Assembly (NCBI GenBank): GCA_035941955.1
Contig: DASZDO010000096.1
Coordinates: forward strand, 40,534 to 104,533
Reading direction: 5' to 3'
From: Chthoniobacterales bacterium
GTDB taxonomy: Bacteria; Verrucomicrobiota; Verrucomicrobiia; Chthoniobacterales; UBA10450
Length of the DNA stretch: 64,000 bases
Shown here: in pieces, positions 4,923-61,092 of the stretch
Layout: each line of letters opens with the position of its first letter
Numbering within the stretch: the stretch's first letter is position 1
The notes under the pieces: generated by a model
What the model saw: only the letters and a program-made list of their open reading frames with translations
Told to the model about the DNA's origin: nothing
Databases searched by the model: none
Program-made: the position numbers and the translations under genes

Positions 4923-7235
4923 TTACTTCGATCGTCCTACCTCCTCCAACAGTGGTCCCCAGTCGTCTGGCGTCATTGCCTTCAACGTACTGTAGTACTT
5001 CGGATGACAGAAAATGTACGCCTGTCTAACAGACTCCAAATAATCATTGGACGCGCCAAGCTTCTCCGGCACATCGTCAAAATCGTTCTTCCTAGAATCC
5101 CATATACGTAATTGACGATAACTATACGTCTCCTTACCTGGTTTGACCGGAGTCTTTTCCACTATAAGATCAAGCTCGGTTATGCCGGGACATCTCGTTT
5201 TCAGGGACTCGGCGATTCGTTTCGATGCGTCGACTGATCCTTGATAGTCTTTTTGATCTAACAAGCGTTGAAAAAAAGTTGACACCGCAAGTGGCTCATT
5301 TTTGCTCGAAAGACTAAACGTGTAGGCGGGTTTGAAAATATCCCGTCCAGCAAACGCAAACGGGGATATCAAGGGCAGTAGATCTGTATGCTTAGTAGCT
5401 TTCACCCGCTGAACGAGGGTCGAAATAAACACGTCATCGGGTAATTCTAGCAACTCAGAGATCACTGTCGGATTATCAACATCGCGCTTCACGTAGTGAT
5501 AGAAGAAATGCTTGAACATGCCTGTACATGCTCTCACCGTTTTGTGCCAATACACCTCCTGATACATGACATTACGACAAGCGAGAAGTGACGGTAGATA
5601 TGATCGCCCCTTCCGATTCAGGCATATGCGCGCGTGGGCTATGTCCAAATATAATGCGTCAATCAATCGATCCGGGTCCAGGGCCCGTCCGTAAGTAACA
5701 CCACAATGAATGCTGTCTCTTATCAGGTAATCTAGCTTGTCGACATCCAAAACCGAATCGATTATCGAATGCGCTACCAACTTCCTCGGATCCGTAAGGT
5801 TTTCCCCACAAATCACATCAGTGACCAAGTTAGGATCCAAATCCCATCGTTCGCTGATAATGGTCTTGATCTTTGAGCGTTCGAGAATCTGCTTGGCGCG
5901 CTGCTCATGACTTGGCAAATTCAAGTTCTGAGGCAGCGGTGCTAACTCTTCTATCCAGTGGGAATACGGATAATGGCCGATATCGTGTAACAGGGCCGAG
6001 AGAGTGACCAGCTTCAACATTTCCGGCACCGGGTCAGCAAAATCGTTAAAGATGGGGAGTCGTGTCAGGCTCTCGAGGTAGCGTAGTGCCAGATGATAAG
6101 TGCCCAATGAGTGTTCAAAACGCGTGTGGTAAGCTCCCGGAAACACAAAAAATGTTGGCCCGAGCTGCCGCGTCCCTCGCAAACGTTGAAAATCGCCTTC
6201 GTCTATTACGGCTTTGACTTCGGGAGTCAGCGAGACGGGCCCGGAAACCGGTAACTGGACCCTGCTGTCAAATACGAAGCGATTCCGTTGACGTGGGAGC
6301 AGAAAATCCCCAGTCCGAAGGCGTAACCCCCACCCCGATCTAGTGAAATACTGCTCTAACGTTCTTTTGAAAAACATGGCGTCTCTAGTAGGAAAGCGCC
6401 TATGCCCGAAAGAGGTTGCAGCCAACAGCGTGTCCTCTAACCCAGAATAACGGGTGGCGTCATAGTCATTCCGGAGAAGTGGCAAGATTTTCCGGAGAAC
6501 AAGCGCAAATTCGAAAATGTCGTTGGCCTCGTATTTCTCTTCTAATATTAAGGTAGGGTTGACGTTTTCAAATCGCCTTATTACGGGGTCTTGCCCAGGG
6601 GATGTGCCGTGGCGCGCGAACCCAAAATCCGCCAAGACAAAGTTCTGATCTTCATCCCGAAACAGAATATTGTCTGCCTTGATATCCTTGTGGGCCAGTT
6701 TTTCGCGATGACAATGAATTATCGCATCCGAGATATGCCGAACGACCTTTTCAAACAAATCGACGCGAAGCGGCTCAAACTGCGGATATATGGGAAGCTC
6801 TGTCTCAGGGTCATAGTCTCTTCGACAAGCCGGAAACATATCTGATAGACGCCGGGACAGATAGTCCATCACATAAAAATAAACGCCGCCGTCTTCGGAA
6901 TCTAATCCTTCGACTAACTGCCACCGCGCCTCAATGTCATTATAGGTCGCCCTTCCCGCCGTCTTAATTCCGACGATGTTCTTATGGTTTGTAGTCGCTA
7001 AAATCTTCACTTCGCGAACGAAATTTCCAATGCTTTCCGTTTCAGACATTGTGACATCTGGTCCCGGGAGGTACAGTTTTAAAGCGAAGGACTTGCCAAT
7101 GGGGTGCATTAACTGATACACGCCGCCCTGTTCACCCTTGCCCAAGCGCTTGACGATTCGGTATGGTCCGAACGCTAAAACTGCTGATTCAGGGTCCTGA
7201 CTAATAGCTTCATCAATGCGGTCAACGATTTTCAT
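4923..7235 (-). CDS. Fusion protein: Hanks-type Ser/Thr protein kinase (N-terminal) + SAMHD1/Dgt-type HD dNTP triphosphohydrolase-like domain (C-terminal)
   Basis: Kinase motifs: LGKGEQGGVY, FALK, HKDIKADNILF, LADFGFAR. HD motifs: YHTRFEHSLGTYHLA, LSALLHDIGHYPYSH, DVDKLDYLIRDSIHCGV. Single uninterrupted 770-aa ORF, visibly more AT-rich than its flanks. Confidence 0.85.
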   Translation of the reverse strand: MKIVDRIDEAISQDPESAVLAFGPYRIVKRLGKGEQGGVYQLMHPIGKSFALKLYLPGPDVTMSETESIGNFVREVKILATTNHKNIVGIKTAGRATYNDIEARWQLVEGLDSEDGGVYFYVMDYLSRRLSDMFPACRRDYDPETELPIYPQFEPLRVDLFEKVVRHISDAIIHCHREKLAHKDIKADNILFRDEDQNFVLADFGFARHGTSPGQDPVIRRFENVNPTLILEEKYEANDIFEFALVLRKILPLLRNDYDATRYSGLEDTLLAATSFGHRRFPTRDAMFFKRTLEQYFTRSGWGLRLRTGDFLLPRQRNRFVFDSRVQLPVSGPVSLTPEVKAVIDEGDFQRLRGTRQLGPTFFVFPGAYHTRFEHSLGTYHLALRYLESLTRLPIFNDFADPVPEMLKLVTLSALLHDIGHYPYSHWIEELAPLPQNLNLPSHEQRAKQILERSKIKTIISERWDLDPNLVTDVICGENLTDPRKLVAHSIIDSVLDVDKLDYLIRDSIHCGVTYGRALDPDRLIDALYLDIAHARICLNRKGRSYLPSLLACRNVMYQEVYWHKTVRACTGMFKHFFYHYVKRDVDNPTVISELLELPDDVFISTLVQRVKATKHTDLLPLISPFAFAGRDIFKPAYTFSLSSKNEPLAVSTFFQRLLDQKDYQGSVDASKRIAESLKTRCPGITELDLIVEKTPVKPGKETYSYRQLRIWDSRKNDFDDVPEKLGASNDYLESVRQAYIFCHPKYYSTLKAMTPDDWGPLLEEVGRSK

Positions 7236-11044: not shown

Positions 11045-11809
11045 TCAACGAAAATGTATCCGGACGAGTGTAGGAGAACTCCTACACCGGCAAGGGCTGC
11101 TGTTCCAAATCGGGTCGCGCAGCGATGCCGCGGCGAATGGCTCGTTGAATTCCTTCGCGATCGCGGACGTGATGGAAAAGCCGCCGATCGGAACGCTGCG
11201 TGTGAAAATTTTCCCAGGCTCGACGAAAAGAAGATTGGTGGTGCGCGCACCGATGTCGACGAGAAGCGAGCATCCGGCCAGGTCCGGGTAGTTGAACCGG
11301 AACGCGTTGTAGAGCGCCATGGTCGCGAGATCGACAATCGATGTGCGCAAACCAGTTGCCTCGACGGCCTGGTTAATCTCATCGAGCAGGTCAGCCTTGA
11401 TCGCGACCAGGATCACCTGAATCTGCTCGTCAGCGCTGCTACTGACTTGCTGGTAATCCCAGGCCACCTCGTCGATCGGAAACGGAACGTTTTGCTGCGC
11501 TTCGAAGAAAACAATGCGTTCGATCTTTTCCGCGCCGATTGGCGGCAGGGTCACGAAGCGGGTGAAAACGGACTCCTCGGCTACCGTGTAGTTAACCTCT
11601 CCGCCCTTGATCTGGAGCTCCTCCAGCATCTCGCGCAAGGCGGCGACAATCTGCGTGCGTCGCGTTCCTTCTCTTGCCGGATCGATCAGAAATTCGCGCG
11701 AGCGGTAGCCACACAAAATCAACCCGCCTTGTGGTTGGGCGCGAAACTCCGCCAGCTCGATGCTCTGCGAGCCGAGATTGAGCGTGATGATGCGTGTCCG
11801 GGGGGACAT
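11045..11809 (-). pseudogene. pilM: Type IV pilus assembly ATPase-like protein PilM, 3'-truncated
   Basis: PilM-like over about 228 aa (IITLNLGSQSIELAEF..., ILVAIKADLLDEINQAVEATGL, LLVDIGARTTNLLF, SVPIGGFSITSAIAKEF). Similarity stops near nt 11126 and is followed by 26 unrelated residues and a stop. About 100 C-terminal residues of a normal PilM are missing, and no pilN/O/P follows. Confidence 0.7.
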
Positions 11810-11875
11810 TCACCCGCAAGAATTCCACAATTCGGCCGGGTTACGCCAGCGGAAAAAAAGGATCTCGTTTTGTGA

Positions 11876-11904
11876 TTGACCGGCTGACTTCAAATCGTCA
11901 GAAT
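11876..11904 (+). promoter_or_regulatory. Putative sigma70-type promoter of small secreted protein gene 1
   Basis: TTGACC-N17-CAGAAT. The same architecture is conserved before paralogues 2 and 3. Confidence 0.4.
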
Positions 11905-11983
11905 CGGGTTCGCCCCGGAAAACACCCCTACCCCCTTTTACCCTCCAGAAAACCCCACCAAAACCCCACAGAAAGAAACCCAA

Positions 11984-19983: not shown

Positions 19984-20179
19984 TGAGATGCACCGTTGCG
20001 AACTCGAAGCCATCCCGCGGTGTTTTTTACTGCCAATGAAATGCCTGGCGAGAAGGAAGTGAGTCATCTGCGCCGTCGCGTCTCGGGAGATTACGAGTTT
20101 AGCACAGGATCGCGGCCGGCGTTCCGCGCGGCTTCGACCGTGATTTGCGCAAGTGTTGCATGGCCGTAGCTTGGGGATT

Positions 20180-20494
20180 ATGAAAACACTCGGACTGTTC
20201 AGTTTTGCGATCATCGCGGTGTTCGGTCTGTCTCAACCTGTGCAAGCGGACGCCGCCGACAGGAGCGAAGGGTATTATTTTCCTAACGAGTCCACCTACG
20301 ACAGCTGCGGCAGAAAACTAACTGTTCGCCACGTGCAGCTGGCGTTGGAGGAGGATGGTTATTATGTGGGAGATAATCGTGGAAATTTTGGCTTCGAGAC
20401 GAGAGCAGCCGTGAGACGGTATCAGCGGGATAACGGGCTCCGGATCTCCGGCAAAATCGACGATTCGCTCCTCAGGACGCTCCGCCTCCGCTAG
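20180..20494 (+). CDS. Peptidoglycan-binding (PG_binding_1) domain protein, secreted
   Basis: VQLALEEDGYYVGDNRGNFGFETRAAVRRYQRDNGLRISGKIDDSLLRTL fits the PG_binding_1 consensus. Signal peptide MKTLGLFSFAIIAVFGLSQPVQA. Confidence 0.7.
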   Translation: MKTLGLFSFAIIAVFGLSQPVQADAADRSEGYYFPNESTYDSCGRKLTVRHVQLALEEDGYYVGDNRGNFGFETRAAVRRYQRDNGLRISGKIDDSLLRTLRLR

Positions 20495-20578: not shown

Positions 20579-22036
20579 CTATTGAATGTTGTAGACTTCC
20601 ACCAGGCCGATGCCGATTCCGTTGTTCTGGCCCGCGAGGATGGCGGTGAAGGCGCCCGGCGGCAGGGTGACAAAGATTCCCGCCTCCAGATGATGTTGGA
20701 GCCCCAGCCCATTCGCGGTGAGCAAGGCGGCGGAGGCTGGATCGTTCTGCCAGTTGTCGTTCGCGACCAGCAACGTCCCGTTGCTGTCGCGCAACTCCAA
20801 GGTCGGATTCGACAGGAGGTTGCTCAAGCCTGACTGGCTGAGGGAGGGCCCGAGGCCGCGAATCGCCACTCGGGAGTTGCCAGTGCCGCCGCCGAGGATG
20901 AAGCCCCCGATCATGACGTTGTTCCCTGTGCGGACAAAACCGCGCGTGCTGAGGTTGGCCAGCCGCGAATCGGCAGCCGGTTCATTATCGTAGACTTCCA
21001 CCAAACCCACGCCGGTGGTTCGATTCAACCCGGTGAGGACGGCGGTATACGCTCCCGGCTGGAGCGTCTGGATGATGGCGGACTCGAGATCGTCACTTGG
21101 CTGATAGATGGTGCCTTGGATCATTTGTTCCTGGGTGTCTCTCCAGTTGTTGTTTTGGAAAATCAGCGCGCCATTGGCTCCATGCAGCGCCAGAACGGGA
21201 TCGGCCAGGGCATCGGTGATGCCGAAATCCATGAGCGATGGCCCGATCCCACGCAGCACCACTGTCTTGGGAGCGTTCCCGGTAATGATGAACCCGCCGA
21301 TCATCGCATTTTCGTCCAATTCCACCCGCAGACGGGTGGCGATGTTCAGCGCATCGGCCGGCGCCGTCCCTGTGCCACAGGCGCCATGAACGTTGAACAC
21401 GATGTGCATATTTGGGTAGCCAATGGCCGAGGTCTCCACGGGGGTCGGAGTACCGCAGTCCACAGCGCTGATGTAACTGGGGGCCGTTTGCGTGGCGGCG
21501 TTTGAGCCGATAAAAAAGGAGTGGCCAGAAGCTTGCCCGCTCGGGCTAAAGACTTCCATCACCAGCTCGGACGTTCCGGCAGGGACAATGACGGACAAAG
21601 GCACATTAAGGATCGTGTGCACTTGGTCCATCACCGTAAGGCTGGTCGTGGCAATCTGGGTCCGGGTCCCATCCGGGAACGCCGCCCCATTGTTGGTGTA
21701 GAGGCGGACGGTCAATGGCTGCCCCGCCCCGGCCCCGGAGCTAGCCTGCTCGATACCAAACGAGACCGACGTGACGTTGTACTGGGCCGAACCGCTGAAT
21801 GTCGCCATGTTGAACGCACGCCAGTAACTGTTGTCATAATGAAGAAAATCAGGCGGACCGCTGTAACAGGCTACGGAGTTTTCTGGGGTAATCGCCTGGC
21901 TGCTGGAGTGCGTAATTGTCGAAGGACATGCCCCCGCCGGTGCAGCAGGAGACGGCGGTTCAACCGCCGCTTGAGCGACGATCCGCCCGCCGCCCAGGAG
22001 CAACAAAGCGGCAGCGATATTGTGAGCTCGCGTCAT
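20579..22036 (-). CDS. Secreted protein with unknown N-terminal domain and two copies of the shared ~120-aa C-terminal domain
   Basis: Signal peptide present. Residues from about 229 to the end are two repeats homologous to the C-termini of 1..1034 and 37320..39413. Confidence 0.7.
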   Translation of the reverse strand: MTRAHNIAAALLLLGGGRIVAQAAVEPPSPAAPAGACPSTITHSSSQAITPENSVACYSGPPDFLHYDNSYWRAFNMATFSGSAQYNVTSVSFGIEQASSGAGAGQPLTVRLYTNNGAAFPDGTRTQIATTSLTVMDQVHTILNVPLSVIVPAGTSELVMEVFSPSGQASGHSFFIGSNAATQTAPSYISAVDCGTPTPVETSAIGYPNMHIVFNVHGACGTGTAPADALNIATRLRVELDENAMIGGFIITGNAPKTVVLRGIGPSLMDFGITDALADPVLALHGANGALIFQNNNWRDTQEQMIQGTIYQPSDDLESAIIQTLQPGAYTAVLTGLNRTTGVGLVEVYDNEPAADSRLANLSTRGFVRTGNNVMIGGFILGGGTGNSRVAIRGLGPSLSQSGLSNLLSNPTLELRDSNGTLLVANDNWQNDPASAALLTANGLGLQHHLEAGIFVTLPPGAFTAILAGQNNGIGIGLVEVYNIQ

Positions 22037-22220: not shown

Positions 22221-23894
22221 ATGGCGCACGACGTTTTCATTTCGCACTCCGCGCAGAACCGAGACGTAGCCGACGCTGTTTGCGAGGCCCTCGAAAAGGC
22301 GGGCATCCGATGCTGGGTCGCTCCCCGGGACGTTCGACCGGGCCGCACATTCCCGGGCGAGATCACGCGAGCTATCCAAAAAAGCAGAGTGATGCTCCTG
22401 ATTTTCTCGAGCCATTCGAACAATTCCGAACAGGTGCTGCGCGAAGTGCAGTTGGCCACGGATTCCCGGCTGGCCATCATACGCTTTCGGATCGAGGACG
22501 TCGCTTTGACCGACGACCTGCGGTACTTCTTGAGCTCGCCGCACTGGCTGGATGCCCTGACACCTCCCCTCTCAAATCACATCGCTCGCCTTGAAGTCGC
22601 GATCAAAGAGTTGCTGGGCTCGTCTACCGAGGTCAGCGGCAAAAACACCGTGGACGACCCGGTTGAGCCGGAAGTATCGCCCGTGACGCCGCCCGCCCCG
22701 GCCGTGGCGCCGCCCACGCTGGCGCCCGCAATGCCGCCACCGCCTCCACCGAGAGAATCGATCGCGCAAAAGCCTGCGGAACCAGTTACTCCCGTGTCTG
22801 CGGCGCGAGAGCGCGAACCCGTCGCCAAGAGATCTTTGACTCCGTGGATCCTGCTGGGCGTTGGCGCGGTGGTGCTTTTCGTCGCAGTGCTCGGCGTCAT
22901 CTTCTTCGTGCTGCGGCAGCCGAAAGCATCCAGGCAACAGGCATCAACCACCCCCGCGCCGGCGGCTCAAACGCCGGAGTCGAAGCCAAATCCCGACCTG
23001 CCCCCGGCCCGGACAGCCAAGGTGACGCAGAGCCCCGGGTCGCAGCCGGTCCGATCGTCGCAGACAACGCCGGCGGCAGAGCCCGAGCATTCCAGTGAAC
23101 CCGAAAGCGCCTCGGCGTTTGAGCGCGCCGGCGCCCTGCGGCGCCCCCCAAGTGAGCACAGTGCCCTCGCACGGGATACTCTCCTCGCTTTCAACAACGC
23201 CGTGCAGGAAAAAAGTTTCGCGGGGTTCTACCGGGAGCAAACCTCACCTACGTTTCGTAAACAATTTTCCCTCGAAAAATTTTCCGCGGCGTTTCAGGTC
23301 TTTATCGAGAAAGGCTACGACATCTCGAATATCGCAAAGGCGGAACCAGTTTTCGACCCGGCACCCGCCGTCGACAGCGACGGTGTCCTCGTCCTGAAAG
23401 GGCACTACGCGACACGACCGAACAAGGTCACGTTCCTGCTCAGATATCTTCGCGAGGGATCGCGCTGGAAAGTTTTGGGGATCAACGTGCAGGCGGTGCC
23501 CTTTGTGGAGAACACTGGCACGGTCCCGTCGAACAAAGAGGTGAAAGGGCTCGTGCTGGATTCTCTGCTGGCGTTCAACAAAGCCGTTCAATCGGAGAGC
23601 TTCACGAATTTTTATGGCCGGATCGCGGAGCTGTGGGCCAAAGAGACCACTCCGGAAAAATTGCAGGAGATCTTCCAAACTTTTATCGATAAAAAAATCA
23701 ACATTGCCCAGATCGCCAGGATGGACCCGGTCTTCGACGGGCCGCCGGCAATCAACACGGACGGATTCCTGGTCGCGAAGGGTTCCTACGCAACCAAGCC
23801 GAGCAAGGTGTTTTTCGAACTCAAGTACGTCGACCAGGACGGAGCCTGGAAGCTGATAGCAATAAATGTGAACGTGAAGCCAGTCGCGGATTAG
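22221..23894 (+). CDS. TIR-domain protein with Pro-rich linker, one TM helix and two tandem ~115-aa C-terminal (predicted extracytoplasmic) domains
   Basis: N-terminus DVFISHSAQNRDVADAVCEALEKAGIRCWVAPRDVRPG...MLLIFSSHSNNSEQVLREVQLA matches the bacterial TIR_2 pattern, including the Glu. TM helix is WILLGVGAVVLFVAVLGVIFFVL. The two repeats start DTLLAFNNAVQEKSFAGFY and LVLDSLLAFNKAVQSESFTNFY. The ATG at 22221 is preferred over the TTG at 22212. Confidence 0.8.
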   Translation: MAHDVFISHSAQNRDVADAVCEALEKAGIRCWVAPRDVRPGRTFPGEITRAIQKSRVMLLIFSSHSNNSEQVLREVQLATDSRLAIIRFRIEDVALTDDLRYFLSSPHWLDALTPPLSNHIARLEVAIKELLGSSTEVSGKNTVDDPVEPEVSPVTPPAPAVAPPTLAPAMPPPPPPRESIAQKPAEPVTPVSAAREREPVAKRSLTPWILLGVGAVVLFVAVLGVIFFVLRQPKASRQQASTTPAPAAQTPESKPNPDLPPARTAKVTQSPGSQPVRSSQTTPAAEPEHSSEPESASAFERAGALRRPPSEHSALARDTLLAFNNAVQEKSFAGFYREQTSPTFRKQFSLEKFSAAFQVFIEKGYDISNIAKAEPVFDPAPAVDSDGVLVLKGHYATRPNKVTFLLRYLREGSRWKVLGINVQAVPFVENTGTVPSNKEVKGLVLDSLLAFNKAVQSESFTNFYGRIAELWAKETTPEKLQEIFQTFIDKKINIAQIARMDPVFDGPPAINTDGFLVAKGSYATKPSKVFFELKYVDQDGAWKLIAINVNVKPVAD

Positions 23895-24188
23895 CGAGGC
23901 AAGAACGCGGCCGACGACGACGAAGAATAGCCCTGCCAAGCTAGTTCGCGATCAAAAGCGGCCGGTTCCGTCCGCACGATGTTGTCTCCACGCTGGCGAG
24001 GCGGAGTTGCGAATGGTTTCCGCAAACTGCGGCGTGATCTACTGATTTCGATTAGCAGAAGGTCCGTCGTGTCCGCACCAAACTCGATCCCAAACCGATC
24101 TCTTGGTGCCTTGGATCTACCCAGGTCGCCGTGACGCGTATTGCGTCGACAGGTTCCAGGAGAATCCTATTTTGAGCGAGTTGGAGGT

Positions 24189-27100
24189 ATGATGACGGAC
24201 GAACAAGACGATTTAGCGAGGCTTTCCTCTCTAAAGCAAGTCGGTGAACTATACCAAGCTCGAAAATTCAGGGAAGCGGTTCCCATCGCGCAAAAATCTC
24301 TGGAACTTTCCGAGAAAGCCCTCGGCCCCGATCACCCAGACACCGTCCGGGCCCTTAACAATCTGGCGGGACTGCATTATTCTCTTGGCGACTACGCCCA
24401 AGCCGAACCGCTCTATCAGCGCGCGCTCAAGATCAGAGAGAAAGCCCTCGGTCCCGATCACCCGGACACCGCCCAGGCCCTTAACAATGTGGCTGTGGTG
24501 TATGATTCTCTGGGTGATTATGCCAAAGCCGAACCGCTCCATCAGCGCGCGCTCAAGATCAGAGAGAAAGCCCTCGGCCTCGATCACCCAGACACCGCAG
24601 GCTCCCTGAACAATCTTGGGGAACTCTATCGCTCCAAGGGCGATTACGCCCAAGCCGAGCCACTTTATCAGCGGGCACTGAAGATCAGCGAGAAAGCACT
24701 CGGCCCCGATCACCCAGACACCGGTCCTGCCTTAAATAATCTAGCGGCGCTGTATTATTCCATGGGTAATTACGCCAAAGCCGAACCACTCTATCAGCGC
24801 GCGCTCAAGATCAGCGAGAAGGCGCTCGGTCCCGATCACCCAGACACCGCCCAAGCCCTTAACAATCTGGCCCTGCTCTATTATTCCAGGGGCGATTACG
24901 CCAAACCTGAACCGCTCTATCAGCGCGCGCTGAAAATCAGGGAGAAAGCCAGCCCCGATCACCCAGGCACCGCCACGGTTCTCAGCAATCTGGCGGAGCT
25001 GTATAATTCCCAGGGCAATTATGCCAAAGCCGAACGGCTCGTTCAGCGCGCGCTCAAGATCAGAGAGAAAGCGCTCGGCCCCGATCACCCGGATACCGCT
25101 ACAGACCTAACCAGTCTGGCGCTGCTCTATCGTTGCCTGGCTGATTACGCCAAAGCCGAACCACTCTATCAGCGCGCGCTCAAGATCAGAGAGAAAGCCC
25201 TCGGCCTCGATCACCCAGACAGTGCCGATGCCCTCAACAATCTGGCGGAGCTATATCGTTCCATGGCTGACTACGCCAAAGCCGAACGGCTCCTTCAGCA
25301 CGCGCTCAAGATCAGAGAAAAAGCCTTCGGCCCCGATCACCCGGACACCGCTCTGGCCTTTAACAATCTGGCGGGGCTGTACTATTCCATGGGCGATTAC
25401 GGCCAAGCCGAACCGCTCTTTCAGCGCGCGCTCAAGATTGACGAGAAAGCGCTTGGTCCCGATCACCCAGCTACCGCTACGATCCTAAACAATCTGGCGG
25501 AGCTATATCGCTGCGTGGCTGATTATGCCAAAGCGGAACGGCTCCTTCAGCGCGCGCTCAAGATCAGAGAGAAAGCCTTCGGCCCCGATCACCCAGCCAT
25601 CGCTACGACCCTAAACACTTTGGCGAAGCTATACAGTTCCATGGGTGATTACGCCAAAGCCGAACCGCTCCTGCAGCGCGCGCTCAACATCAGAGACGAA
25701 GTCCTCGGCTCCGATCATCCAGCCACCGCCACGGTTCTCAATAATTTGGCGGCGATCAGGATCGACCTCGGGGATGCAAGAGACGCTTTCGCTTCAGCCA
25801 CGCGCGCGGGAGAGGCGGAAGAGAAATATTTATCGAATATTCTTTCATTCACCTCCGAACAACAGCGCCTGATTTTTCAGAAAACAACCCAGCCGTACAC
25901 ACTATTTGCAACGTTAGGCAGTGCTGCCGAACTCGCGCAGACAGTGCTTCGGCAAAAAGGCGTCGTGCTGGATTCGCTGCTGGAAGACCGGCTCGCAGCA
26001 GAAGCAAGTGGTGACCCGAAGCAGCGTGAAGTTATTACTAAACTGCGCGGTGCGAAGCAGCGACTGATGCAATTGGTTCTGGAAGTTCCGAAAGACCTAT
26101 CCGAAGCGGCCCAGAAACACCGCGCGGCTGAAAAAGAAAGACTCTCCACGGAAGTCGAGCAACTTGAGGGCGGCCTTGCTCGTCAGGTGGCGGGACTCGG
26201 GAAAGCCAGGCGCGCCCTAAGTGTCACCGTCCCGCAAATTCAGTGCGTTCTTCCAAAACAGGCAGTGTTAATCGAGTTGTTGCGCTACTCCCATTATCTT
26301 GGAAAAGGAAAATTCGAAACCAGCTACGGCGCGGTGGTAATTCCTGCGCGTGGGAAGCCAGAATGGGTCCCGCTCGGCGCCGCTGCGGAGATAGAAAAGG
26401 ATGTCAAACTCTATCAAAAATCTGTGCGTGGAGAAACAGACGAACCAACGCTCAGATACGTTCTCAAGGCCCTGGAGGAGCGAGTCTGGGCGCCAATCGA
26501 GAAGGCTCTGCCGGAGAAGAGTAAAACGGTCATTCTAAGCCCCGATGGAGAACTGAGTTTTGTTTCGTTTGCGACGCTGCTGACTCCTGACGATCGGTTT
26601 CTTGGCGAGAAGTATTCCATTCGCTATGTCGCCAGCGGCCGTGACTTGCTGCGGGAGACTAAACCATCGAGCGATCCGATGACGGTCGTCTTCGCTAACC
26701 CGGACTTTGACAGCCAGGCAATTACTCGAACGACTGGCCCATCAAGCGCTGTTGTCCTGCGCTCACTTGAAATGCGAGCTCTGCAAAGTATTCGCCTCGA
26801 TGCGCTGCCTGGCACCGCGGACGAAGCCGCTGCCCTTAAAAAACGGGGAGGGAAAGCAGTGAAGGTTTTTTTGGGACCAAAAGCGACGGAAGTTAAGCTG
26901 GGGCAAGTGAACTCTCCTCGCGTTCTCCATCTGGCCACCCATGGTTTTTTCCTGCCCGAAACTGAGTTAGGAAAACAAACCGACCCACTGCATCAACCAG
27001 GCGAAAGTCCCAAAACAATGCCGGAGCATCCCATGCACCGCAGCGGGCTGGCCCTGGCAGGAGCGCAGCGCACGTTCAACGCCTGGAGCCGAGGTGAAGT

Positions 27101-27485
27101 GCCGCCGATAGAGAACGACGGTATCGTCACAGCCGAAGAAGTGGGCGGACTGAAACTCAATGGCACGTGGCTGGTCGTCCTCTCTGCTTGTGACACTGGC
27201 TCGGGCGAAGGACGCGCCGGTGAGGGGGTGATGGGCCTAAGGCGAGGTTTCGTCCAGGCCGGCGGGCAGAACCTTCTGATGACGCTATGGCCAATCAGCG
27301 ATGAGACGACCGTGCAGATCATGCTCGATTTCTACGCAACGGCGGAGAAGACCCGCAACGCACCTAAAGCCCTCGCAGAGGTGCAGCGCACCTGGCTGGT
27401 TAAGCTTCGCAAAGAGTTCGGCTTGTCCGACGCCGTTGAATTGGCCGGCCCGTTTATCATGAGTTCGCAGGGCAAACCGTGGTAA
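24189..27485 (+). CDS. TPR (12 x 42-aa TPR_12/kinesin-light-chain-like repeats) - coiled coil - CHAT (caspase-like) protease domain protein
   Basis: GGAGG precedes the ATGATG at 24189. The repeats read AEPLYQRALKIREKALGPDHPDTAxALNNLAxLYxSxGDYAK. The CHAT dyad context is VLHLATHGFFL (His) and WLVVLSACDTGSGE (Cys). Confidence 0.85.
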   Translation: MMTDEQDDLARLSSLKQVGELYQARKFREAVPIAQKSLELSEKALGPDHPDTVRALNNLAGLHYSLGDYAQAEPLYQRALKIREKALGPDHPDTAQALNNVAVVYDSLGDYAKAEPLHQRALKIREKALGLDHPDTAGSLNNLGELYRSKGDYAQAEPLYQRALKISEKALGPDHPDTGPALNNLAALYYSMGNYAKAEPLYQRALKISEKALGPDHPDTAQALNNLALLYYSRGDYAKPEPLYQRALKIREKASPDHPGTATVLSNLAELYNSQGNYAKAERLVQRALKIREKALGPDHPDTATDLTSLALLYRCLADYAKAEPLYQRALKIREKALGLDHPDSADALNNLAELYRSMADYAKAERLLQHALKIREKAFGPDHPDTALAFNNLAGLYYSMGDYGQAEPLFQRALKIDEKALGPDHPATATILNNLAELYRCVADYAKAERLLQRALKIREKAFGPDHPAIATTLNTLAKLYSSMGDYAKAEPLLQRALNIRDEVLGSDHPATATVLNNLAAIRIDLGDARDAFASATRAGEAEEKYLSNILSFTSEQQRLIFQKTTQPYTLFATLGSAAELAQTVLRQKGVVLDSLLEDRLAAEASGDPKQREVITKLRGAKQRLMQLVLEVPKDLSEAAQKHRAAEKERLSTEVEQLEGGLARQVAGLGKARRALSVTVPQIQCVLPKQAVLIELLRYSHYLGKGKFETSYGAVVIPARGKPEWVPLGAAAEIEKDVKLYQKSVRGETDEPTLRYVLKALEERVWAPIEKALPEKSKTVILSPDGELSFVSFATLLTPDDRFLGEKYSIRYVASGRDLLRETKPSSDPMTVVFANPDFDSQAITRTTGPSSAVVLRSLEMRALQSIRLDALPGTADEAAALKKRGGKAVKVFLGPKATEVKLGQVNSPRVLHLATHGFFLPETELGKQTDPLHQPGESPKTMPEHPMHRSGLALAGAQRTFNAWSRGEVPPIENDGIVTAEEVGGLKLNGTWLVVLSACDTGSGEGRAGEGVMGLRRGFVQAGGQNLLMTLWPISDETTVQIMLDFYATAEKTRNAPKALAEVQRTWLVKLRKEFGLSDAVELAGPFIMSSQGKPW
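24273..25781 (+). repeat. Twelve tandem 126-bp coding repeats (TPR units) with high DNA identity
   Basis: The same 126-nt unit (one 41-aa variant) is read directly in the sequence. Long stretches such as CAGCGCGCGCTCAAGATCAGAGAGAAAGC recur. Confidence 0.9.
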
Positions 27486-27572
27486 GACCGCAATTCCGGG
27501 GGAGGAAAATTAGAAGGGATTGGAGTAGCTTTGGTGTTGCGATTCGGAGCCTTTAATTGATGGCGAGAAATC

Positions 27573-27836
27573 ATGAATGAACATTGCACCCACTTGGAGC
27601 AGATTAGAGACGACATCGTTCCCAGCGCGGATGGGTGTGAGGAGTGTTTGAAGATCGGTTCGCCCTGGGTCCATTTGCGGCTCTGCCTGACGTGCGGACA
27701 CGTAGGTTGCTGCGACTCTTCGCCGAACCGCCACGCCACGAAACATTTTCACGCCACCGGGCATCCAATCGTCCGATCTTTTCAGCCGGGCGAAGACTGG
27801 GCGTGGTGTTACGTCGATGAAATGTTCCTAAGCTGA
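27573..27836 (+). CDS. UBP-type zinc-finger (ZnF-UBP) domain protein
   Basis: CTHL...CEECLKIGSPWVHLRLCLTCGHVGCCDSSPNRHATKHFHATGHPIVRSFQPGEDWAWCYVDE carries the full Cys/His pattern of bacterial stand-alone ZnF-UBP proteins. Confidence 0.8.
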   Translation: MNEHCTHLEQIRDDIVPSADGCEECLKIGSPWVHLRLCLTCGHVGCCDSSPNRHATKHFHATGHPIVRSFQPGEDWAWCYVDEMFLS

Positions 27837-29538: not shown

Positions 29539-29680
29539 GGTAGGGCGAGACTCTGTCGAGCCGGACGTGGCGAAACAATCCACCGGCTCGACAGAGTCTC
29601 GCCCTACCAACACAACAGAGCCTCGCCCTACCAACGCAATACAGTCTCGCCCTACCAACAGAACAGAGTCTCGCCCTACC
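29539..29680. repeat. Perfect 26-bp-stem hairpin followed by three 24-bp tandem repeats of its distal arm
   Basis: GGTAGGGCGAGACTCTGTCGAGCCGG (29539-29564) pairs with CCGGCTCGACAGAGTCTCGCCCTACC (29583-29608). Then AAC.CAA.ACAG(A/T)(G/C)(C/T)CTCGCCCTACC occurs three times, up to 29680. Confidence 0.9.
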
Positions 29681-29697
29681 AGGAAATGTGCTCATTG

Positions 29698-30444
29698 TTA
29701 AGTGGGCGCTTGAATCGACACGCCGCTGTTTTCCAGGCTTGCGCGAAGGGCGCGGACAAAGGCAACCGCGCCGGGTGTGTCGCCGTGCACGCAAATGGTC
29801 TCGGCGCGGACTTGGACATCCTTTCCGTCGACCGAACGAACCACGCCTTCGCGCAGCATTCGGAGCACTCTCTTCGCGGCTTCCTCGGGATCGTGCAGCA
29901 GCGCGTCAGGCCGTGTGCGCGGGACGAGCGATCCATCCGAGAGGTAATTCCTATCGGCAAAAACTTCCCGCACGACGCGCAGCTTCGCGGATTGGGCGGC
30001 GCGCTCGAGCACGCTTTCGCCTGGCGCGAAGAAGAGCAAGGATGAATCGATCGCCAGGACGGCATGCGCGATCGCTTCCGCCAGTTTCTCATCGCGCACC
30101 GCCATGTTGTAAAGCGCGCCGTGGGCTTTCACATGATTTGCCCGGGTGCCAGCCGCCGTGGCCAGGGCGTGGAATGCGCCCAGCTGGTACGCGACAAGGG
30201 CGAAAACTTCGACTGCCGGAAGCGCGATCTCTTTTCGGCCAAAATTTTCCCGATCCATGAAACTTGGATGTGCTCCCACGGCCACGCCACGCTCACGGGC
30301 CGCGCGAATCGACGCCAGGATGGAGACCGGATCGCCGGCGTGAAAGCCGCAGGCAATGCTGGCTGAACTCACCAGCTGCAATAGCTCATCATCGTGGCCG
30401 GCGCCTTCGCCCAGGTCGGCATTGAGATCGACGCGCATGTTCAT
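29698..30444 (-). CDS. pxpA: 5-oxoprolinase subunit A (LamB/YcsF family)
   Basis: VDLNADLGEGAGHDDELLQLVSSASIACGFHAGDP is the canonical PxpA N-terminus. Last gene of a pxpB-C-A arrangement. Confidence 0.85.
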   Translation of the reverse strand: MNMRVDLNADLGEGAGHDDELLQLVSSASIACGFHAGDPVSILASIRAARERGVAVGAHPSFMDRENFGRKEIALPAVEVFALVAYQLGAFHALATAAGTRANHVKAHGALYNMAVRDEKLAEAIAHAVLAIDSSLLFFAPGESVLERAAQSAKLRVVREVFADRNYLSDGSLVPRTRPDALLHDPEEAAKRVLRMLREGVVRSVDGKDVQVRAETICVHGDTPGAVAFVRALRASLENSGVSIQAPT

Positions 30445-37192: not shown

Positions 37193-37319
37193 TCATCGCG
37201 GGAGCTCACGATAGCCTGGTCAGCAAGCTCTTGTTCTTAGATACTCAAGGCGTAAAAAGGTGTATCCTTGCATGTCTCAGTTGCCCAATGTGCCGACGAT
37301 TTTGAAAAAAAGTTCAATT

Positions 37320-39413
37320 ATGCGCCCGTTCCTAGCCTCCTTGACTCTCTCTCCGGTAGCAATTGTCACCCTGTTTTTCGCGGCGGCCGCCAGTGTCCAA
37401 GGCGTCCACGCAGCCACCCTTGTGGTTACCACCACCGCTGACAGCGGCGCGGGCTCGTTACGCGATACCATCGCCGCGGCCAGCGATGGGGACACGATTC
37501 AGTTCGATGCCGCGCTCAATGGGCAGACGATCACTCTCACCAGCGCGGAACTGCTGATAAACAAGAATCTCATCATCGATGGCCCGGGCGCGCATCAGTT
37601 AACCGTGCAGCGGAGCACGGCCACTGGCACTCCGGCCTTCCGCATTTTTAACGCCTCCGGAAGTTTCGGCGTCACCATTGCTGGCCTCACCATCGCCAAT
37701 GGCAGTGCTCCGGACGCCGGCGGCGGAGGCATTGCCAGCACTGTCCTGACCTTGACGGTCGCAAACTGTGTTATCTCAGGCAACAACGCCCAGGGCGGTG
37801 GCGGTATCTTGTGCGCTGCCCCTTCGTTGAACCAGTCAACGGTGAGTATTGCTAATTGCACGATCTCCGGCAACAGCGCCGCGAGCGGTGGCGGGATTCA
37901 TAATGATGGACCTATTGGAATGTTTTACCGCGGCAGTGTGCTCACAATCACAAACAGCACCATCTCCGGTAACGCAGCGACTTTCATGGGCGATGGCCTT
38001 AGTCAAGGCGGTGGGATCGCTAATCTGGGCCGGTTGACGGTCATCAATAGCACCATCTCCGACAACGTCGTGGCCGTGGACGAGTCCCGGGGCGGCGGCG
38101 GCATTTATACCACCGGCACATTGGCGATGACCAATACCACCATTTCCGGGAACTCGGCGAACCTCGGCGGCGGAATCAGAAATTTGGGCACCCACGCTAT
38201 TCATAATCCGGGCGCGTTGGCGATCACAAACAGCACCGTCTCAGGAAATTCGGCCAGCGAGGGCGGTGGCCTGCTTGGCGGGGGGCAATCCAGGAACGCG
38301 ATCATCGCCTTGAATACATCCGCGAATGGTCCAGATGTGAACGGCACGCTCAGATCGGAAGGTTTCAACCTCATCGGTAACAACTCTGGCGCGATCATTT
38401 TCGCCCAACAACCTTCAGATCAAATCGGCACCCCGGCTTCGCCCATCGATCCGCTCCTCGGGCCCTTGCAAAACAACGGCGGGCCGACTTTCACTCACGC
38501 ATTGCTCCAGGGCAGCCCGGCCCTGGACCAAGGCGAATCCAGCGGCTCGACGACTGATCAACGGGGTTTCCATCGCCCGGTGGACTTCCCTGATATCGCG
38601 AATGAAGCTGGTGGCGACGGCGCCGACATTGGCGCGTTTGAATCTGCTCCCGCAACGCTCGCAAATATTTCCACCCGCCTTCGCGTTGAGACCGGCGACA
38701 ACGCCATGATTGGCGGATTTATCATTACGGGAACCGAGCCAAAAACCGTGATCGTTCGTGGGATTGGGCCTTCGCTCTCCCTCCCTGGTGCGCTAGCCGA
38801 TCCGATCATCGAAGTCCATGGTCCCTCCGGCGAGCTTCTCGCCACTAATGACAATTGGAGGGATGGATTATATGCCCAACAAGTCGCCCAGACGCTGCCA
38901 CCGGCGAGCGATTTGGAGTCGGCGCTGCATGGGACCATCAATCCCGGAGCTTATACGGTCGTCGTCCGGGGGACGAACAACACCACGGGCATAGCCTTGT
39001 TCGAAGTCTACGATCTGGATCCAACGGCCGCCTCCAAGCTGGGTAATATTTCCACGCGCGGTTTCGTCTCTACGGGCGATAACGTGATGATCGGCGGCGT
39101 CATCCTCGTGGGGAGCGCTCCGGCGAGAGTCCTCTTCCGCGCGATAGGTCCCAGCCTGACGAATTTTGGTGTGCCCAATGCGTTGGCAGATCCAATCCTG
39201 GAACTGTATGACGCCAACGGCGGACTCATCGCCGTCAATTACAACTGGCGGGATGATCAGGAGGCGGAGATTCTGGCCACCGGCATTCCGCCGTCGAACG
39301 ATTTGGAGGCGGCGATCGTGAGAGATTTCGCGCCGGGCAATTACACCGCCATCGTTCGCGGCTTGAACAACGCCACCGGCATGGCCTTGGTCGAAGCGTA
39401 CGACTTGAATTAG
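37320..39413 (+). CDS. Secreted right-handed beta-helix (polymorphic-outer-membrane-protein-like repeat) protein ending in two copies of the shared C-terminal domain
   Basis: Signal peptide after the Met at 37320. Repeated I.N.TISGN.A..GGGI units. From about nt 38653 there are two ANISTR...GIGPSL... domains. Confidence 0.75.
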   Translation: MRPFLASLTLSPVAIVTLFFAAAASVQGVHAATLVVTTTADSGAGSLRDTIAAASDGDTIQFDAALNGQTITLTSAELLINKNLIIDGPGAHQLTVQRSTATGTPAFRIFNASGSFGVTIAGLTIANGSAPDAGGGGIASTVLTLTVANCVISGNNAQGGGGILCAAPSLNQSTVSIANCTISGNSAASGGGIHNDGPIGMFYRGSVLTITNSTISGNAATFMGDGLSQGGGIANLGRLTVINSTISDNVVAVDESRGGGGIYTTGTLAMTNTTISGNSANLGGGIRNLGTHAIHNPGALAITNSTVSGNSASEGGGLLGGGQSRNAIIALNTSANGPDVNGTLRSEGFNLIGNNSGAIIFAQQPSDQIGTPASPIDPLLGPLQNNGGPTFTHALLQGSPALDQGESSGSTTDQRGFHRPVDFPDIANEAGGDGADIGAFESAPATLANISTRLRVETGDNAMIGGFIITGTEPKTVIVRGIGPSLSLPGALADPIIEVHGPSGELLATNDNWRDGLYAQQVAQTLPPASDLESALHGTINPGAYTVVVRGTNNTTGIALFEVYDLDPTAASKLGNISTRGFVSTGDNVMIGGVILVGSAPARVLFRAIGPSLTNFGVPNALADPILELYDANGGLIAVNYNWRDDQEAEILATGIPPSNDLEAAIVRDFAPGNYTAIVRGLNNATGMALVEAYDLN

Positions 39414-46837: not shown

Positions 46838-46930
46838 CAGTGGAGCAATGGAGTAATGGAGTGGTGGAGTAATGAATGATAAGTCTTCCAATACTCCAGC
46901 ACTCCATTGCTCCATTGCTGCATTACTCCA
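46838..46930. repeat. ORF-less long hairpin built from ATGGAG(C/T)A words
   Basis: The left arm GCAGTGGAGCAATGGAGTAATGGAGTGGTGGAGTAATG faces the right arm ATACTCCAGCACTCCATTGCTCCATTGCTGCATTACTCC across a ~15-nt loop. Confidence 0.8.
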
Positions 46931-50982: not shown

Positions 50983-50997
50983 TTCCAACGGATCGTC

Positions 50998-60259: not shown

Positions 60260-60357
60260 GTTTCGCGCTGCGAATCGCAAGCCAACGCAGCCAAAGTCAC
60301 TTCGGAACGCACGAGACGGGTGTAGGAATTCTCCTATACCCCTTCGGACGTTTCTTG

Positions 60358-61060: not shown

Positions 61061-61092
61061 CCGGTTATTAACCCCAAAAAAGAAAGAACCCC

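What the first reader, a model, noticed from the sequence alone, without database searches (positions are those of the whole stretch)
22221..27836. Membrane-spanning TIR protein + 12xTPR-CHAT caspase-like protease + ZnF-UBP: candidate envelope-sensing conflict/signalling module
Seen:
- Three consecutive same-strand genes.
- Gene 1 has an N-terminal TIR domain (DVFISHS...GIRCWVAPRDVRPG...LLIFSS.S..SEQVLREVQLA, Glu retained), a Pro-rich linker and a single TM helix. After a Pro/Ser/Thr linker come two tandem ~115-aa domains that are clearly paralogous (DTLLAFNNAVQEKSFAGFY...WKVLGINVQ and DSLLAFNKAVQSESFTNFY...WKLIAINVN). I cannot assign them to a family.
- Gene 2 starts 294 nt downstream. It is a TPR array + coiled coil + CHAT domain with the His (HLATHG) and Cys (LSACDTG) dyad.
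- Gene 3 is a stand-alone UBP-type zinc finger.

Established:
- Bacterial TIR domains are NAD+-consuming or signal-generating enzymes in Thoeris, CBASS effectors and related systems.
- CHAT domains are caspase-fold proteases, and TPR-CHAT is the protease partner of type III-E CRISPR systems.
- TIR, TPR and CHAT modules co-occur in the conflict systems catalogued by comparative genomics.
- ZnF-UBP domains bind free C-terminal tails in eukaryotes.

Inference:
- A TIR whose regulatory domains face the periplasm would couple an extracytoplasmic cue (phage adsorption, envelope damage, a kin or non-kin signal) to cytoplasmic NAD-derived signalling or depletion.
- The TPR-CHAT protease, and possibly the ZnF-UBP reader of newly cut C-termini, would be downstream or parallel effectors.
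- I do not recognise this three-gene layout as a named system.
Basis: partly seen in the sequence, partly recalled or inferred. Interest (0 to 1): 0.78.

Follow-up and report, generated by a model that had tools for sequence, protein, structure and literature searches.

The report
Membrane TIR protein beside unrelated genes
The three genes exist as described, but related genomes show they do not travel together: the caspase-like protease gene is a recent insertion next to a conserved membrane-spanning TIR protein, so this is not a three-part sensing system.

Summary
Three same-strand ORFs encode:
- a TIR / one TM helix / two paralogous ~115-aa domains protein (22221-23894);
- a 12xTPR-CHAT protein (24189-27485);
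- an 87-aa zf-UBP protein (27573-27836).

The catalytic-type Glu (E75) and the CHAT His/Cys dyad are present. The two unknown domains model confidently as NTF2-like.

The three-gene module is not supported.
- In five orthologous contexts of the TIR gene (81-86% identity), TPR-CHAT occurs only in this window. A 3.67-kb segment here replaces 88 nt in a relative.
- No CHAT gene lies within 10 kb of any of 87 related TIR loci.
- The nearest TPR-CHAT homologues sit in tandem paralogue arrays, without TIR or zf-UBP.
- zf-UBP is a ubiquitous small protein. It stays with the right-hand amino-acid-permease/LamB block even where there is no TIR gene.

What remains is gene 1. It belongs to a large, multi-paralogue family in the Chthoniobacterales (Verrucomicrobiota): N-terminal TIR, one TM helix, then a variable outside domain. 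Its outside module also occurs on transmembrane Ser/Thr kinases and as free signal-peptide proteins. It therefore looks like a single-gene, receptor-like TIR protein. Its signalling chemistry is inferred, not shown.

The parts
22221..23894 (+). Gene 1: a 557-aa single-pass membrane TIR protein. Order: TIR, linker, TM helix, P/S/T stalk, two NTF2-like domains.
   Evidence: ORF. A 100% identical protein, P0001, is named a TIR domain-containing protein of a Chthoniobacterales MAG. Orthologues at 81-86% identity come from nine assemblies.
22233..22556 (+). TIR_2 domain (aa 5-112). It contains RDVRPG (22326-22343) and the catalytic-type Glu E75 (22443-22445).
   Evidence: Pfam E 9.7e-21. Alignment to PdTIR 3H16. 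The AF2 model (pLDDT 70) hits TIR structures at E 3e-6 to 1e-3. The region is nearly invariant across the family.
22845..22913 (+). Single transmembrane helix (aa 209-231).
   Evidence: Hydropathy scan. 68 related TIR proteins have a helix at about the same place.
23112..23132 (+). Conserved stalk motif SAFERAG (aa 298-304), outside the membrane.
   Evidence: A299, F300, A303 and G304 are invariant in 18 sequences. The motif is duplicated as SAFDRAGG in the 335-aa forms.
23175..23510 (+). NTF2-like repeat 1 (aa 319-~430).
   Evidence: Internal repeat. AF2 pLDDT 92, with helices followed by three long strands. Fold hits are NTF2-like or cystatin-like.
23559..23891 (+). NTF2-like repeat 2 (aa 447-557).
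   Evidence: Same evidence as repeat 1. This repeat also matches the single repeat of the TIR-TM-1xrepeat paralogues L012, L015, L047 and L057.
23883..27554 (.). A 3.67-kb segment present here but replaced by 88 nt in the orthologous locus L004. It carries the whole of gene 2 and its upstream region.
   Evidence: blastn of the window against L004. The segment is also absent from L094, L093 and L001. Gene 2 has GC3 0.59-0.63, against 0.70-0.78 for gene 1 and most flanking core genes.
24189..27485 (+). Gene 2: a TPR-CHAT caspase-fold protease of 1098 aa, or 1114 aa from TTG 24141.
   Evidence: Pfam TPR_10 x12, TPR_12 x11, CHAT E 1.9e-58. There are more than 100 homologues at 56-85% identity, several per contig.
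24186..25868 (+). TPR array encoded by 126-nt DNA repeats (11-13 units, 75-81% nucleotide identity).
26928..27200 (+). CHAT catalytic dyad region: HLATHG (26928-26945) and LSACDTG (27180-27200).
27573..27836 (+). Gene 3: an 87-aa stand-alone zf-UBP protein.
   Evidence: Pfam E 1.2e-15. 73% identical to PDB 2IDA. More than 8000 close homologues occur in many phyla.
20153..20494 (+). Small secreted PG_binding_1 protein. It is the best-conserved same-strand neighbour upstream of the TIR gene. This is a lead only.
   Evidence: Pfam. Present upstream of the TIR gene in L001, L004, L008, L011, L013, L093 and L094.

Best explanation
The three genes are neighbours by genome history, not parts of one system.

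Gene 1 is a vertically inherited, single-gene, receptor-like membrane protein.
- It has an N-terminal cytoplasmic TIR domain with the catalytic-type Glu, one TM helix, a Pro/Ser/Thr stalk and two periplasmic NTF2-like domains.
- It belongs to a large family with the layout N-terminal TIR, one TM helix, then a variable outside domain. The family has several paralogues per Chthoniobacterales genome.
- Its outside module is a portable sensor module. The same module is fused to transmembrane Ser/Thr kinases and also exists as a free secreted or periplasmic protein.

Most likely mechanism (inferred from established TIR enzymology, not shown here):
- Binding of an envelope-derived ligand or partner changes the clustering of the outside domains.
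- This brings the cytoplasmic TIR domains together.
- The clustered TIR domains cleave NAD+ or make an ADP-ribose-derived signal.

Gene 2 is a lineage-specific insertion of one copy of a multi-copy TPR-CHAT protease family.

Gene 3 is a ubiquitous small zf-UBP protein of unknown function. It belongs to the right-hand synteny block (amino-acid permease, LamB/YcsF, CT_A_B, CT_C_D).

My confidence is about 0.8 that this is not a three-gene module. It is about 0.5-0.6 that the TIR domain signals enzymatically in this way.
For: TPR-CHAT is not linked to the TIR gene.
- There are five orthologous contexts of the TIR-TM-2xrepeat gene:
  - window: TIR | TPR-CHAT | UBP | AA permease;
  - L094: TIR | UBP;
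  - L004: TIR | UBP | ... | AA permease;
  - L093: TIR | TPR(-) | AA permease;
  - L001: TIR | 297-aa unknown | PGI.
- Window 23883-27554 replaces 88 nt of L004.
- tblastn finds no CHAT homologue in 85 TIR loci.
- A profile HMM finds none among 5,996 ORFs of 87 TIR loci.
- The nearest TPR-CHAT homologues (80-85% identity) lie in tandem TPR-CHAT arrays without TIR or UBP.
- Gene 2 has GC3 0.59-0.63. Gene 1 and most flanking core genes have 0.70-0.78.

zf-UBP belongs to the right-hand block.
- Close zf-UBP orthologues (84-89% identity) sit at the edge of the same AA-permease/LamB/CT_A_B/CT_C_D block. Upstream of them is an IRK channel gene (L086/87) or a PhzF gene (L175), not a TIR gene.
- None of 80 metagenome zf-UBP loci has a TIR or CHAT gene in its flanks.

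Gene 1 is a core gene of receptor-like build.
- The upstream synteny (epimerase, PG_binding_1) is kept.
- Among orthologues the TIR region is 93-96% identical, against 69-76% for the linker and 80-86% for the repeats.
- 68 of the related TIR ORFs have a TM helix after the N-terminal TIR. Their outside domains fall into at least 10 groups plus 27 singletons.
- No neighbouring gene family is shared across these groups above chance.
- The repeat module occurs on Ser/Thr kinases (P0103, P0108) and behind signal peptides (P0096, P0109, P0116).
- The repeat family has 2,667 representatives at 50% identity clustering.
- PADLOC finds no defence system in the window. There is no CRISPR array.
Against: - TIR and zf-UBP are adjacent on the same strand in three of five orthologous contexts.
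- They are also adjacent in one distant relative, L068, with a 19-nt gap. There the TIR is 47% identical and the outside domain is different. About 0.02 such cases would be expected by chance in 80 loci.
- Lack of synteny does not exclude a coupling that arose newly in this one lineage, or partners that act in trans.
- There is no predicted terminator between g1 and g2.
- The positive-inside bias around the TM helix is weak: mean K+R 3.1 on the N side against 2.3 on the C side.
- NADase activity, topology, ligand and co-transcription are all untested.
- All comparison genomes are MAGs or metagenome contigs.
Confidence: 0.55

Rival explanations
1. The three genes form one envelope-sensing module: the membrane TIR senses an outside cue and makes an NAD-derived signal, which activates the TPR-CHAT protease. 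The zf-UBP protein then reads the newly cut C-termini. This would be a membrane-coupled analogue of type IV Thoeris.
For: The genes are on the same strand and close together. The catalytic Glu and the His/Cys dyad are intact. A TIR plus caspase-like protease system exists in nature: type IV Thoeris (bioRxiv 10.1101/2024.10.24.620036). No terminator-like site lies between g1 and g2.
Against: TPR-CHAT is next to the TIR gene in one of five orthologous contexts and in none of 87 related TIR loci. It is a 3.67-kb indel with deviant GC3. Its closest relatives lie in paralogue arrays without TIR or UBP. None of 80 zf-UBP loci has a TIR or CHAT gene. Gene 2 has no domain after CHAT that could bind a signal, unlike the type IV Thoeris effector. 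The locus is not in a defence island.
Confidence: 0.05
2. The real unit is a two-gene pair: membrane TIR plus zf-UBP. TPR-CHAT inserted between them in this genome. The zf-UBP protein would be a cytoplasmic partner or regulator of the TIR domain.
For: TIR and zf-UBP are adjacent on the same strand with gaps of 19-75 nt in L094, L004 and the distant L068. Chance expectation for an immediate downstream neighbour is about 1 in 4000 per locus.
Against: zf-UBP is absent next to the TIR gene in L001 and L093. It is also absent next to all 335-aa orthologues (L007-L011) and next to L064 and L081, which share L068's outside domain. Close zf-UBP orthologues keep the AA-permease block but have other upstream genes. 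None of 80 zf-UBP loci has a TIR gene. zf-UBP is 70-80% identical across phyla that lack this TIR family.
Confidence: 0.12
3. Gene 1 is a stand-alone membrane protein, as in the best explanation, but its TIR domain is a non-enzymatic assembly or scaffold domain. It might, for example, recruit cytoplasmic proteins to an envelope structure. No NAD-derived signal would be made.
For: The TIR region is nearly invariant, and the gene is a syntenic core gene with several paralogues per genome. This fits a housekeeping interaction surface better than an arms-race enzyme. The BB-loop carries RDxxPG, the Box 2 motif of metazoan receptor and adaptor TIRs (PMC7075850). No conserved effector gene lies nearby.
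Against: The catalytic-type Glu is invariant. From my own knowledge, bacterial TIR domains with this Glu that have been tested, such as AbTir, BtpA and PdTIR, cleave NAD+.
Confidence: 0.2

Closest known systems
Type IV Thoeris: a short TIR protein plus the caspase-like protease ThsE, signalling through N7-cADPR (Rousset et al., bioRxiv 10.1101/2024.10.24.620036)
   Same: A TIR-domain gene with the catalytic Glu lies next to a caspase-fold protease gene with a His/Cys dyad.
   Different: In type IV Thoeris the TIR protein is short and the two genes form an abundant, conserved operon near defence systems. The protease there carries a C-terminal domain thought to bind the signal. Here the TIR protein is a 557-aa membrane protein and the protease is TPR-CHAT with nothing after CHAT. 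The pairing is unique to one genome, and the context is housekeeping.
Type III-E CRISPR TPR-CHAT (Csx29, 'Craspase')
   Same: The domain order is TPR then CHAT.
   Different: There is no CRISPR array and no cas match in the window. PADLOC gives only generic TPR hits for gene 2. No solved structure shows sequence similarity to gene 2, even with a profile. The TPRs are of the TPR_10/TPR_12 (NPHP3-like) type, in 12 near-identical 42-aa units.
Metazoan Toll-like and IL-1 receptors
   Same: [quoted passage not shown] The RDxxPG Box 2 motif is also present.
   Different: The orientation is reversed, with the TIR domain at the N-terminus. The outside domains are NTF2-like rather than LRR or Ig. The bacterial TIR_2 type keeps the catalytic Glu. 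No adaptor homologues are known.
Bacterial transmembrane Ser/Thr receptor kinases (PknB-like build)
   Same: The very same two-repeat NTF2-like module sits outside the membrane on kinases P0103 and P0108, at 57-58% identity. This indicates a shared sensor module with exchangeable cytoplasmic outputs.
   Different: The output domain here is TIR, not a kinase.
Soluble bacterial TIR NADases (PdTIR 3H16, AbTir, BtpA) and Thoeris ThsB
   Same: The TIR fold and the Glu position match.
   Different: Those proteins are soluble. This one is membrane-anchored with an outside domain. Matches to ThsB models are below threshold.
Bacterial zf-UBP mini-proteins (PDB 2IDA; listed as conserved hypothetical mini-proteins in PMC2602986)
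   Same: Gene 3 is a typical member, 73% identical to 2IDA.
   Different: Nothing distinguishes gene 3 from other members. The function of the family is unknown.

Membership tests
Type IV Thoeris (TIR + caspase-like ThsE) | A conserved two-gene operon of a TIR gene and a caspase-like protease gene, recurring across genomes. | tested here: not met
   The adjacency occurs in one of five orthologous contexts. No CHAT gene lies within 10 kb in 87 related TIR loci. The nearest CHAT homologues lack a TIR neighbour.
Type IV Thoeris (TIR + caspase-like ThsE) | A short, soluble TIR protein. | tested here: not met
   The protein is 557 aa with a TM helix and outside domains.
Type IV Thoeris (TIR + caspase-like ThsE) | The protease carries a C-terminal domain proposed to bind the signal. 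| tested here: not met
   The CHAT match ends 28 residues from the C-terminus, and the extra domains are N-terminal TPRs.
Type IV Thoeris (TIR + caspase-like ThsE) | Located near defence systems or on mobile elements. | tested here: not met
   The neighbours are an epimerase, a PG-binding protein, an AA permease, LamB/YcsF, RecO and a PMT_2 protein. PADLOC gives only generic single-domain hits.
Type IV Thoeris (TIR + caspase-like ThsE) | The TIR protein makes N7-cADPR, which activates the protease. | not testable with these tools
   This needs biochemistry.
Type III-E CRISPR TPR-CHAT (Csx29) | Encoded next to gRAMP/Cas7-11 and a CRISPR array. | tested here: not met
   There is no CRISPR-like repeat array in the 64 kb. 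No cas model is among the 25 PADLOC families listed of 42 that matched the 53 ORFs.
Type III-E CRISPR TPR-CHAT (Csx29) | Sequence relationship to Csx29. | tested here: not met
   Neither phmmer nor a profile search of PDB chains gives a hit at E <= 1. PADLOC gives generic TPR models only.
TIR domain (Pfam TIR_2), NADase-competent type | TIR fold with a significant profile match. | tested here: met
   TIR_2 E 9.7e-21. Fold hits are to TIR structures.
TIR domain (Pfam TIR_2), NADase-competent type | A conserved Glu at the catalytic position. | tested here: met
   E75 aligns with the Glu of PdTIR 'QKEL' and is invariant in the family. That this position is the catalytic one rests on my knowledge of the W/V-x-x-K/R-E motif.
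TIR domain (Pfam TIR_2), NADase-competent type | NAD+ cleavage activity. | not testable with these tools
   This needs an enzyme assay.
CHAT caspase-fold proteases (Pfam PF12770) | A profile match plus the His and Cys dyad. | tested here: met
   E 1.9e-58. The His residues of HLATHG and the Cys of LSACDTG are invariant in 12 homologues.
NTF2-like superfamily (for the two C-terminal repeats) | An alpha+beta cone fold: helices packed on a curved sheet. | tested here: inconclusive
   The model is confident (pLDDT 92): 4-5 helices and three long strands per repeat. The best fold hits are all NTF2-like or cystatin-like, but weak (E 4e-3 to 0.15, TM about 0.42-0.49 for single-domain targets). Relatives hit DUF3887 and DUF4864 below the Pfam threshold.
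zf-UBP (Pfam PF02148) | A profile match and a Cys/His-rich zinc-finger pattern. | tested here: met
   E 1.2e-15. 73% identical to 2IDA. The Cys/His positions are listed. Binding of free C-termini was not tested.

The most novel reading that the evidence does not exclude
Gene 1 would represent a family of bacterial receptors built like Toll-like receptors.
- The proteins are single-pass, with a cytoplasmic, catalytically competent TIR domain and exchangeable periplasmic sensor domains. Here the sensors are two NTF2-like domains also used by receptor Ser/Thr kinases.
- The family is vertically inherited and has several paralogues per genome.
- It would carry out everyday transmembrane signalling through NAD-derived messengers, not phage defence.
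Probability: 0.3. Interest if true: 0.75.

Novelty: new variant of a known kind. Interest (0 to 1): 0.32.

Why it matters
The main result is corrective. A layout that looks like a membrane-coupled version of the TIR-caspase (type IV Thoeris) logic is an accident of gene order in one genome. It should not be catalogued as a system.

Gene 1 is the part worth keeping.
- Bacterial TIR proteins studied so far are soluble sensors or effectors of phage defence.
- This family instead has a membrane anchor and variable outside domains.
- Its TIR domain is almost invariant.
- It sits in core-genome synteny and has many paralogues.
- These features point to TIR signalling used for reading the cell's surroundings.
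- If confirmed, TIR would join kinases and cyclases as an output domain of bacterial transmembrane receptors. It would also be a bacterial parallel to the build of animal Toll-like receptors.

Tried and rejected
- PADLOC on the three proteins and on 53 window ORFs gave only generic TIR, TPR, kinase and ABC-ATPase domain hits, and no system.
- NCBIfam gave nothing specific. The FxSxx_TPR hit on gene 2 covers only TPR repeats.
- A search for a universal partner of the TIR-TM family clustered all ORFs within 3 kb of 80 loci.
  - The only widely shared family is the multi-copy 'up485' secreted-protein family, at roughly its background density.
  - The other shared families are lineage synteny.
- The same clustering around 80 zf-UBP genes found no general partner. 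The commonest neighbour, in 10 of 80 loci, is a receiver-domain plus thioredoxin-reductase-like fusion.
- Sequence searches of the CHAT half against the PDB found nothing, with a single sequence or a profile.
- I looked for repeats, IS ends or a tRNA at the borders of the 3.67-kb insertion and found none. How it inserted is therefore unknown.
- The promoter and terminator scan was uninformative. There is a weak promoter-like site at 24146-24173, and terminator-like sites are fewer than in shuffles.
- Literature searches found no description of bacterial membrane TIR receptors in the held library. That is not proof that none exists.
- I considered that a stand-alone two-repeat gene next to the 335-aa TIR forms was the source of the fusion. 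No such gene lies within 10 kb of L007-L011.
- The AF2 model of the TIR domain alone reached only pLDDT 70, from a shallow alignment. I used it only to confirm the fold.


Full report
**What is in the sequence**

Three + strand ORFs lie at 22221-23894, 24189-27485 and 27573-27836.

Gene 1, 557 aa:
- Pfam TIR_2 covers aa 5-112, E 9.7e-21.
- A single hydrophobic helix spans aa 209-231.
- Pro/Ser/Thr-rich linkers lie on both sides of the helix.
- Two C-terminal repeats are 44% identical over 122 aa, E 7e-28.
- E75 aligns with the Glu of the bacterial TIR PdTIR (3H16). It is invariant in the family.

Gene 2:
- It has 12 TPR_10/TPR_12 units and a CHAT domain, E 1.9e-58.
- The His residues of HLATHG and the Cys of LSACDTG are invariant among homologues.

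Gene 3:
- It is an 87-aa zf-UBP protein, E 1.2e-15.
- It is 73% identical to the solved bacterial protein 2IDA.

The source is a Chthoniobacterales (Verrucomicrobiota) MAG, where P0001 is 100% identical to gene 1.

**The two unknown domains**

- A model of aa 310-557, built on 24 homologues, has pLDDT 92. Each repeat is four or five helices followed by three long strands.
- The fold hits are weak (E 4e-3 and up) but uniform: NTF2-like proteins, the NTF2-like N-terminal domain of PBP2a, the CaMKII hub, ketosteroid isomerase and cystatin-like proteins.
- Relatives match DUF3887 and DUF4864 below threshold.
- A profile search finds 2,667 representatives at 50% clustering, with one to four repeats per protein.
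- The module occurs in three settings:
  - behind cleavable signal peptides as a ~310-aa free protein (P0096, P0109, P0116);
  - after a TM helix on Ser/Thr kinases (P0103, P0108);
  - after a TM helix on TIR.
- This is the behaviour of an extracytoplasmic sensor module with exchangeable cytoplasmic outputs. It is also the best evidence for the TIR-in, repeats-out topology.
- The positive-inside signal is only weak.

**The family of gene 1**

- The nearest relatives are mostly ~335-aa proteins: the same TIR, the TM helix and a P/S/T tail with SAFERAG-type motifs, but no repeats.
- The fused form is a small clade of nine proteins at 81-86% identity.
- A scan of one genome per species found 164 relatives, and I kept 80 loci.
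- In 68 of the related TIR ORFs, an N-terminal TIR is followed by a TM helix. The helix is followed by outside domains falling into at least 10 unrelated groups plus 27 singletons.
- Single genomes carry several paralogues.
- A second paralogue group, with 49-54% TIR identity, carries one copy of the same repeat (L012, L015, L047, L057).
- Among orthologues the TIR region is 93-96% identical. The linker is 69-76% identical and the repeats 80-86%.
- The gene keeps its left-hand synteny. That block holds an epimerase and a small PG_binding_1 protein. It often also holds a 485-aa secreted protein.
- This is a core gene under strong constraint, not a mobile defence gene.

**Test of the three-gene module**

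The five orthologous contexts read as follows:

| Locus | Gene order after the TIR gene |
|---|---|
| window | TPR-CHAT, UBP, AA permease |
| L094 | UBP |
| L004 | UBP, then further genes, AA permease |
| L093 | TPR gene on the minus strand, AA permease (no UBP) |
| L001 | 297-aa unknown, PGI (no UBP) |

The zf-UBP gene in L004 had been missed by the public gene call.

TPR-CHAT:
- At nucleotide level, window 23883-27554 (3.67 kb) replaces 88 nt of L004.
- Gene 2 has GC3 0.59-0.63. Gene 1 and most flanking core genes have 0.70-0.78.
- No CHAT homologue is found in any TIR locus by tblastn.
- None is found by a profile HMM over 5,996 ORFs.
- The closest TPR-CHAT proteins (80-85% identity) lie in tandem arrays of two to five paralogues, with no TIR or zf-UBP gene.
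- TPR-CHAT is therefore a lineage-specific insertion of a multi-copy family.

zf-UBP:
- This is a very widespread small protein, 70-80% identical across phyla. It has been listed among conserved hypothetical mini-proteins since 2008 (PMC2602986).
- Its close orthologues stay at the edge of the AA-permease/LamB/CT_A_B/CT_C_D block. Upstream of them is an IRK channel gene or a PhzF gene, not a TIR gene.
- None of 80 metagenome zf-UBP loci has a TIR or CHAT gene nearby.
- One observation points the other way. In the distant L068, a TIR-TM protein with a different outside domain is followed after 19 nt by a zf-UBP gene.
- The two other members of that outside-domain group lack this neighbour.
- I keep a TIR + zf-UBP pair as a minor rival.

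**Context**

- The neighbours are housekeeping or surface genes.
- PADLOC finds only generic domain hits in 53 ORFs.
- There is no CRISPR array.
- The only RNA gene is a tRNA-Leu 34 kb away.

**Mechanism**

Shown:
- the architecture;
- the retained Glu;
- the modular outside domain;
- the core-gene behaviour.

Inferred from established TIR biochemistry, in which activity needs self-association:
- the outside domains bind an envelope-derived ligand or partner;
- clustering brings the TIR domains together;
- NAD+ is cleaved or converted into a signal.

A non-enzymatic scaffold role is the main alternative. For TPR-CHAT I can only say that it is an intact caspase-fold protease with a large TPR platform. 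It belongs to a family that multiplies within genomes.

**Comparison with known systems**

It pairs a short TIR protein with the caspase-like ThsE protease and signals through N7-cADPR.
- Four of its defining features were tested here and none is met.
- Type III-E TPR-CHAT (Csx29) shares only the domain order.
- Gene 1 works most like a one-component transmembrane receptor. It shares its sensor module with receptor kinases and mirrors the build of Toll-like receptors.

**Verdict**

- The finding as framed, a three-gene module, is not supported.
- The remaining interest lies in the membrane TIR family.
- I found no description of that family in the held literature.

Noticed in passing
L004 11758-12039 (+), also L005: The zf-UBP gene is missing from the public gene call. 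That call lists a minus-strand 81-aa ORF (11722-11967) over the same DNA. Surveys based on called genes would miss this neighbour.
   Followed up: yes
window 46881-46928, 48426-48481, 50901-50988: Three tracts of tandem 8-nt units (CATTACTC / CAACACTC type). Most lie just upstream of ORF starts (47014, 50959). The middle tract lies inside the ORF listed from 48376. They could be repeated binding sites or a contingency-type repeat.
   Followed up: no
window 29582-29701: Four tandem 24-nt units (ACCAACnnAACAGAGnCTCGCCCT) in the spacer between the AA-permease and LamB/YcsF genes.
   Followed up: no
window 48-1034 (+), 20579-22036 (-), 37260-39413 (+): Three paralogous secreted proteins share a ~260-aa C-terminal domain (51-53% identity) with no Pfam, NCBIfam or PADLOC match. 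The family is very abundant in these genomes, at about one copy per 20 kb. It lies near 24 of 80 TIR loci, roughly its background density.
   Followed up: partly
L025, L032, L042, L045 near position 10001; window 60370-61755: Relatives carry another TIR-TM paralogue between the homologues of window ORFs 59746-60369 and 61755-62633. In that interval the window instead has two small ORFs and tRNA-Leu (61583-61663).
   Followed up: partly
window 23112-23132 (g1 aa 298-304): SAFERAG is a short motif in the extracytoplasmic stalk and is invariant across the family. It is duplicated as SAFDRAGG in the 335-aa forms. It may be a docking or processing site.
   Followed up: no
window 20153-20494 (+): A small signal-peptide protein with a PG_binding_1 domain is the most consistently kept same-strand neighbour upstream of the TIR gene (seven other loci). 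All cases lie within one order, so this may be plain synteny.
   Followed up: partly
L095-L174 (metagenome zf-UBP loci): In 10 of 80 loci, the gene just upstream of zf-UBP on the same strand is a receiver-domain plus thioredoxin-reductase-like fusion of ~590 aa. This is the commonest partner seen for this mini-protein.
   Followed up: no
window 24186-25868: The TPR array of gene 2 is encoded by 11-13 DNA repeats of 126 nt at 75-81% nucleotide identity. Homologues range from 569 to 1228 aa. The array therefore seems to expand and contract.
   Followed up: partly
window 22326-22343 (g1 aa 36-41): The TIR BB-loop reads RDVRPG. This is the 'Box 2' RDxxPG motif that PMC7075850 describes as typical of metazoan receptor and adaptor TIRs and usually absent from prokaryotic TIRs.
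   Followed up: no
window 4923-7235 (-): A 770-aa protein with an N-terminal Ser/Thr kinase domain accounts for all the PD-T4-6, mad6 and MkoA PADLOC hits in the window. ABC-ATPase ORF 47014-47949 accounts for the mad3, mad8 and AriA hits. None forms a system.
   Followed up: partly
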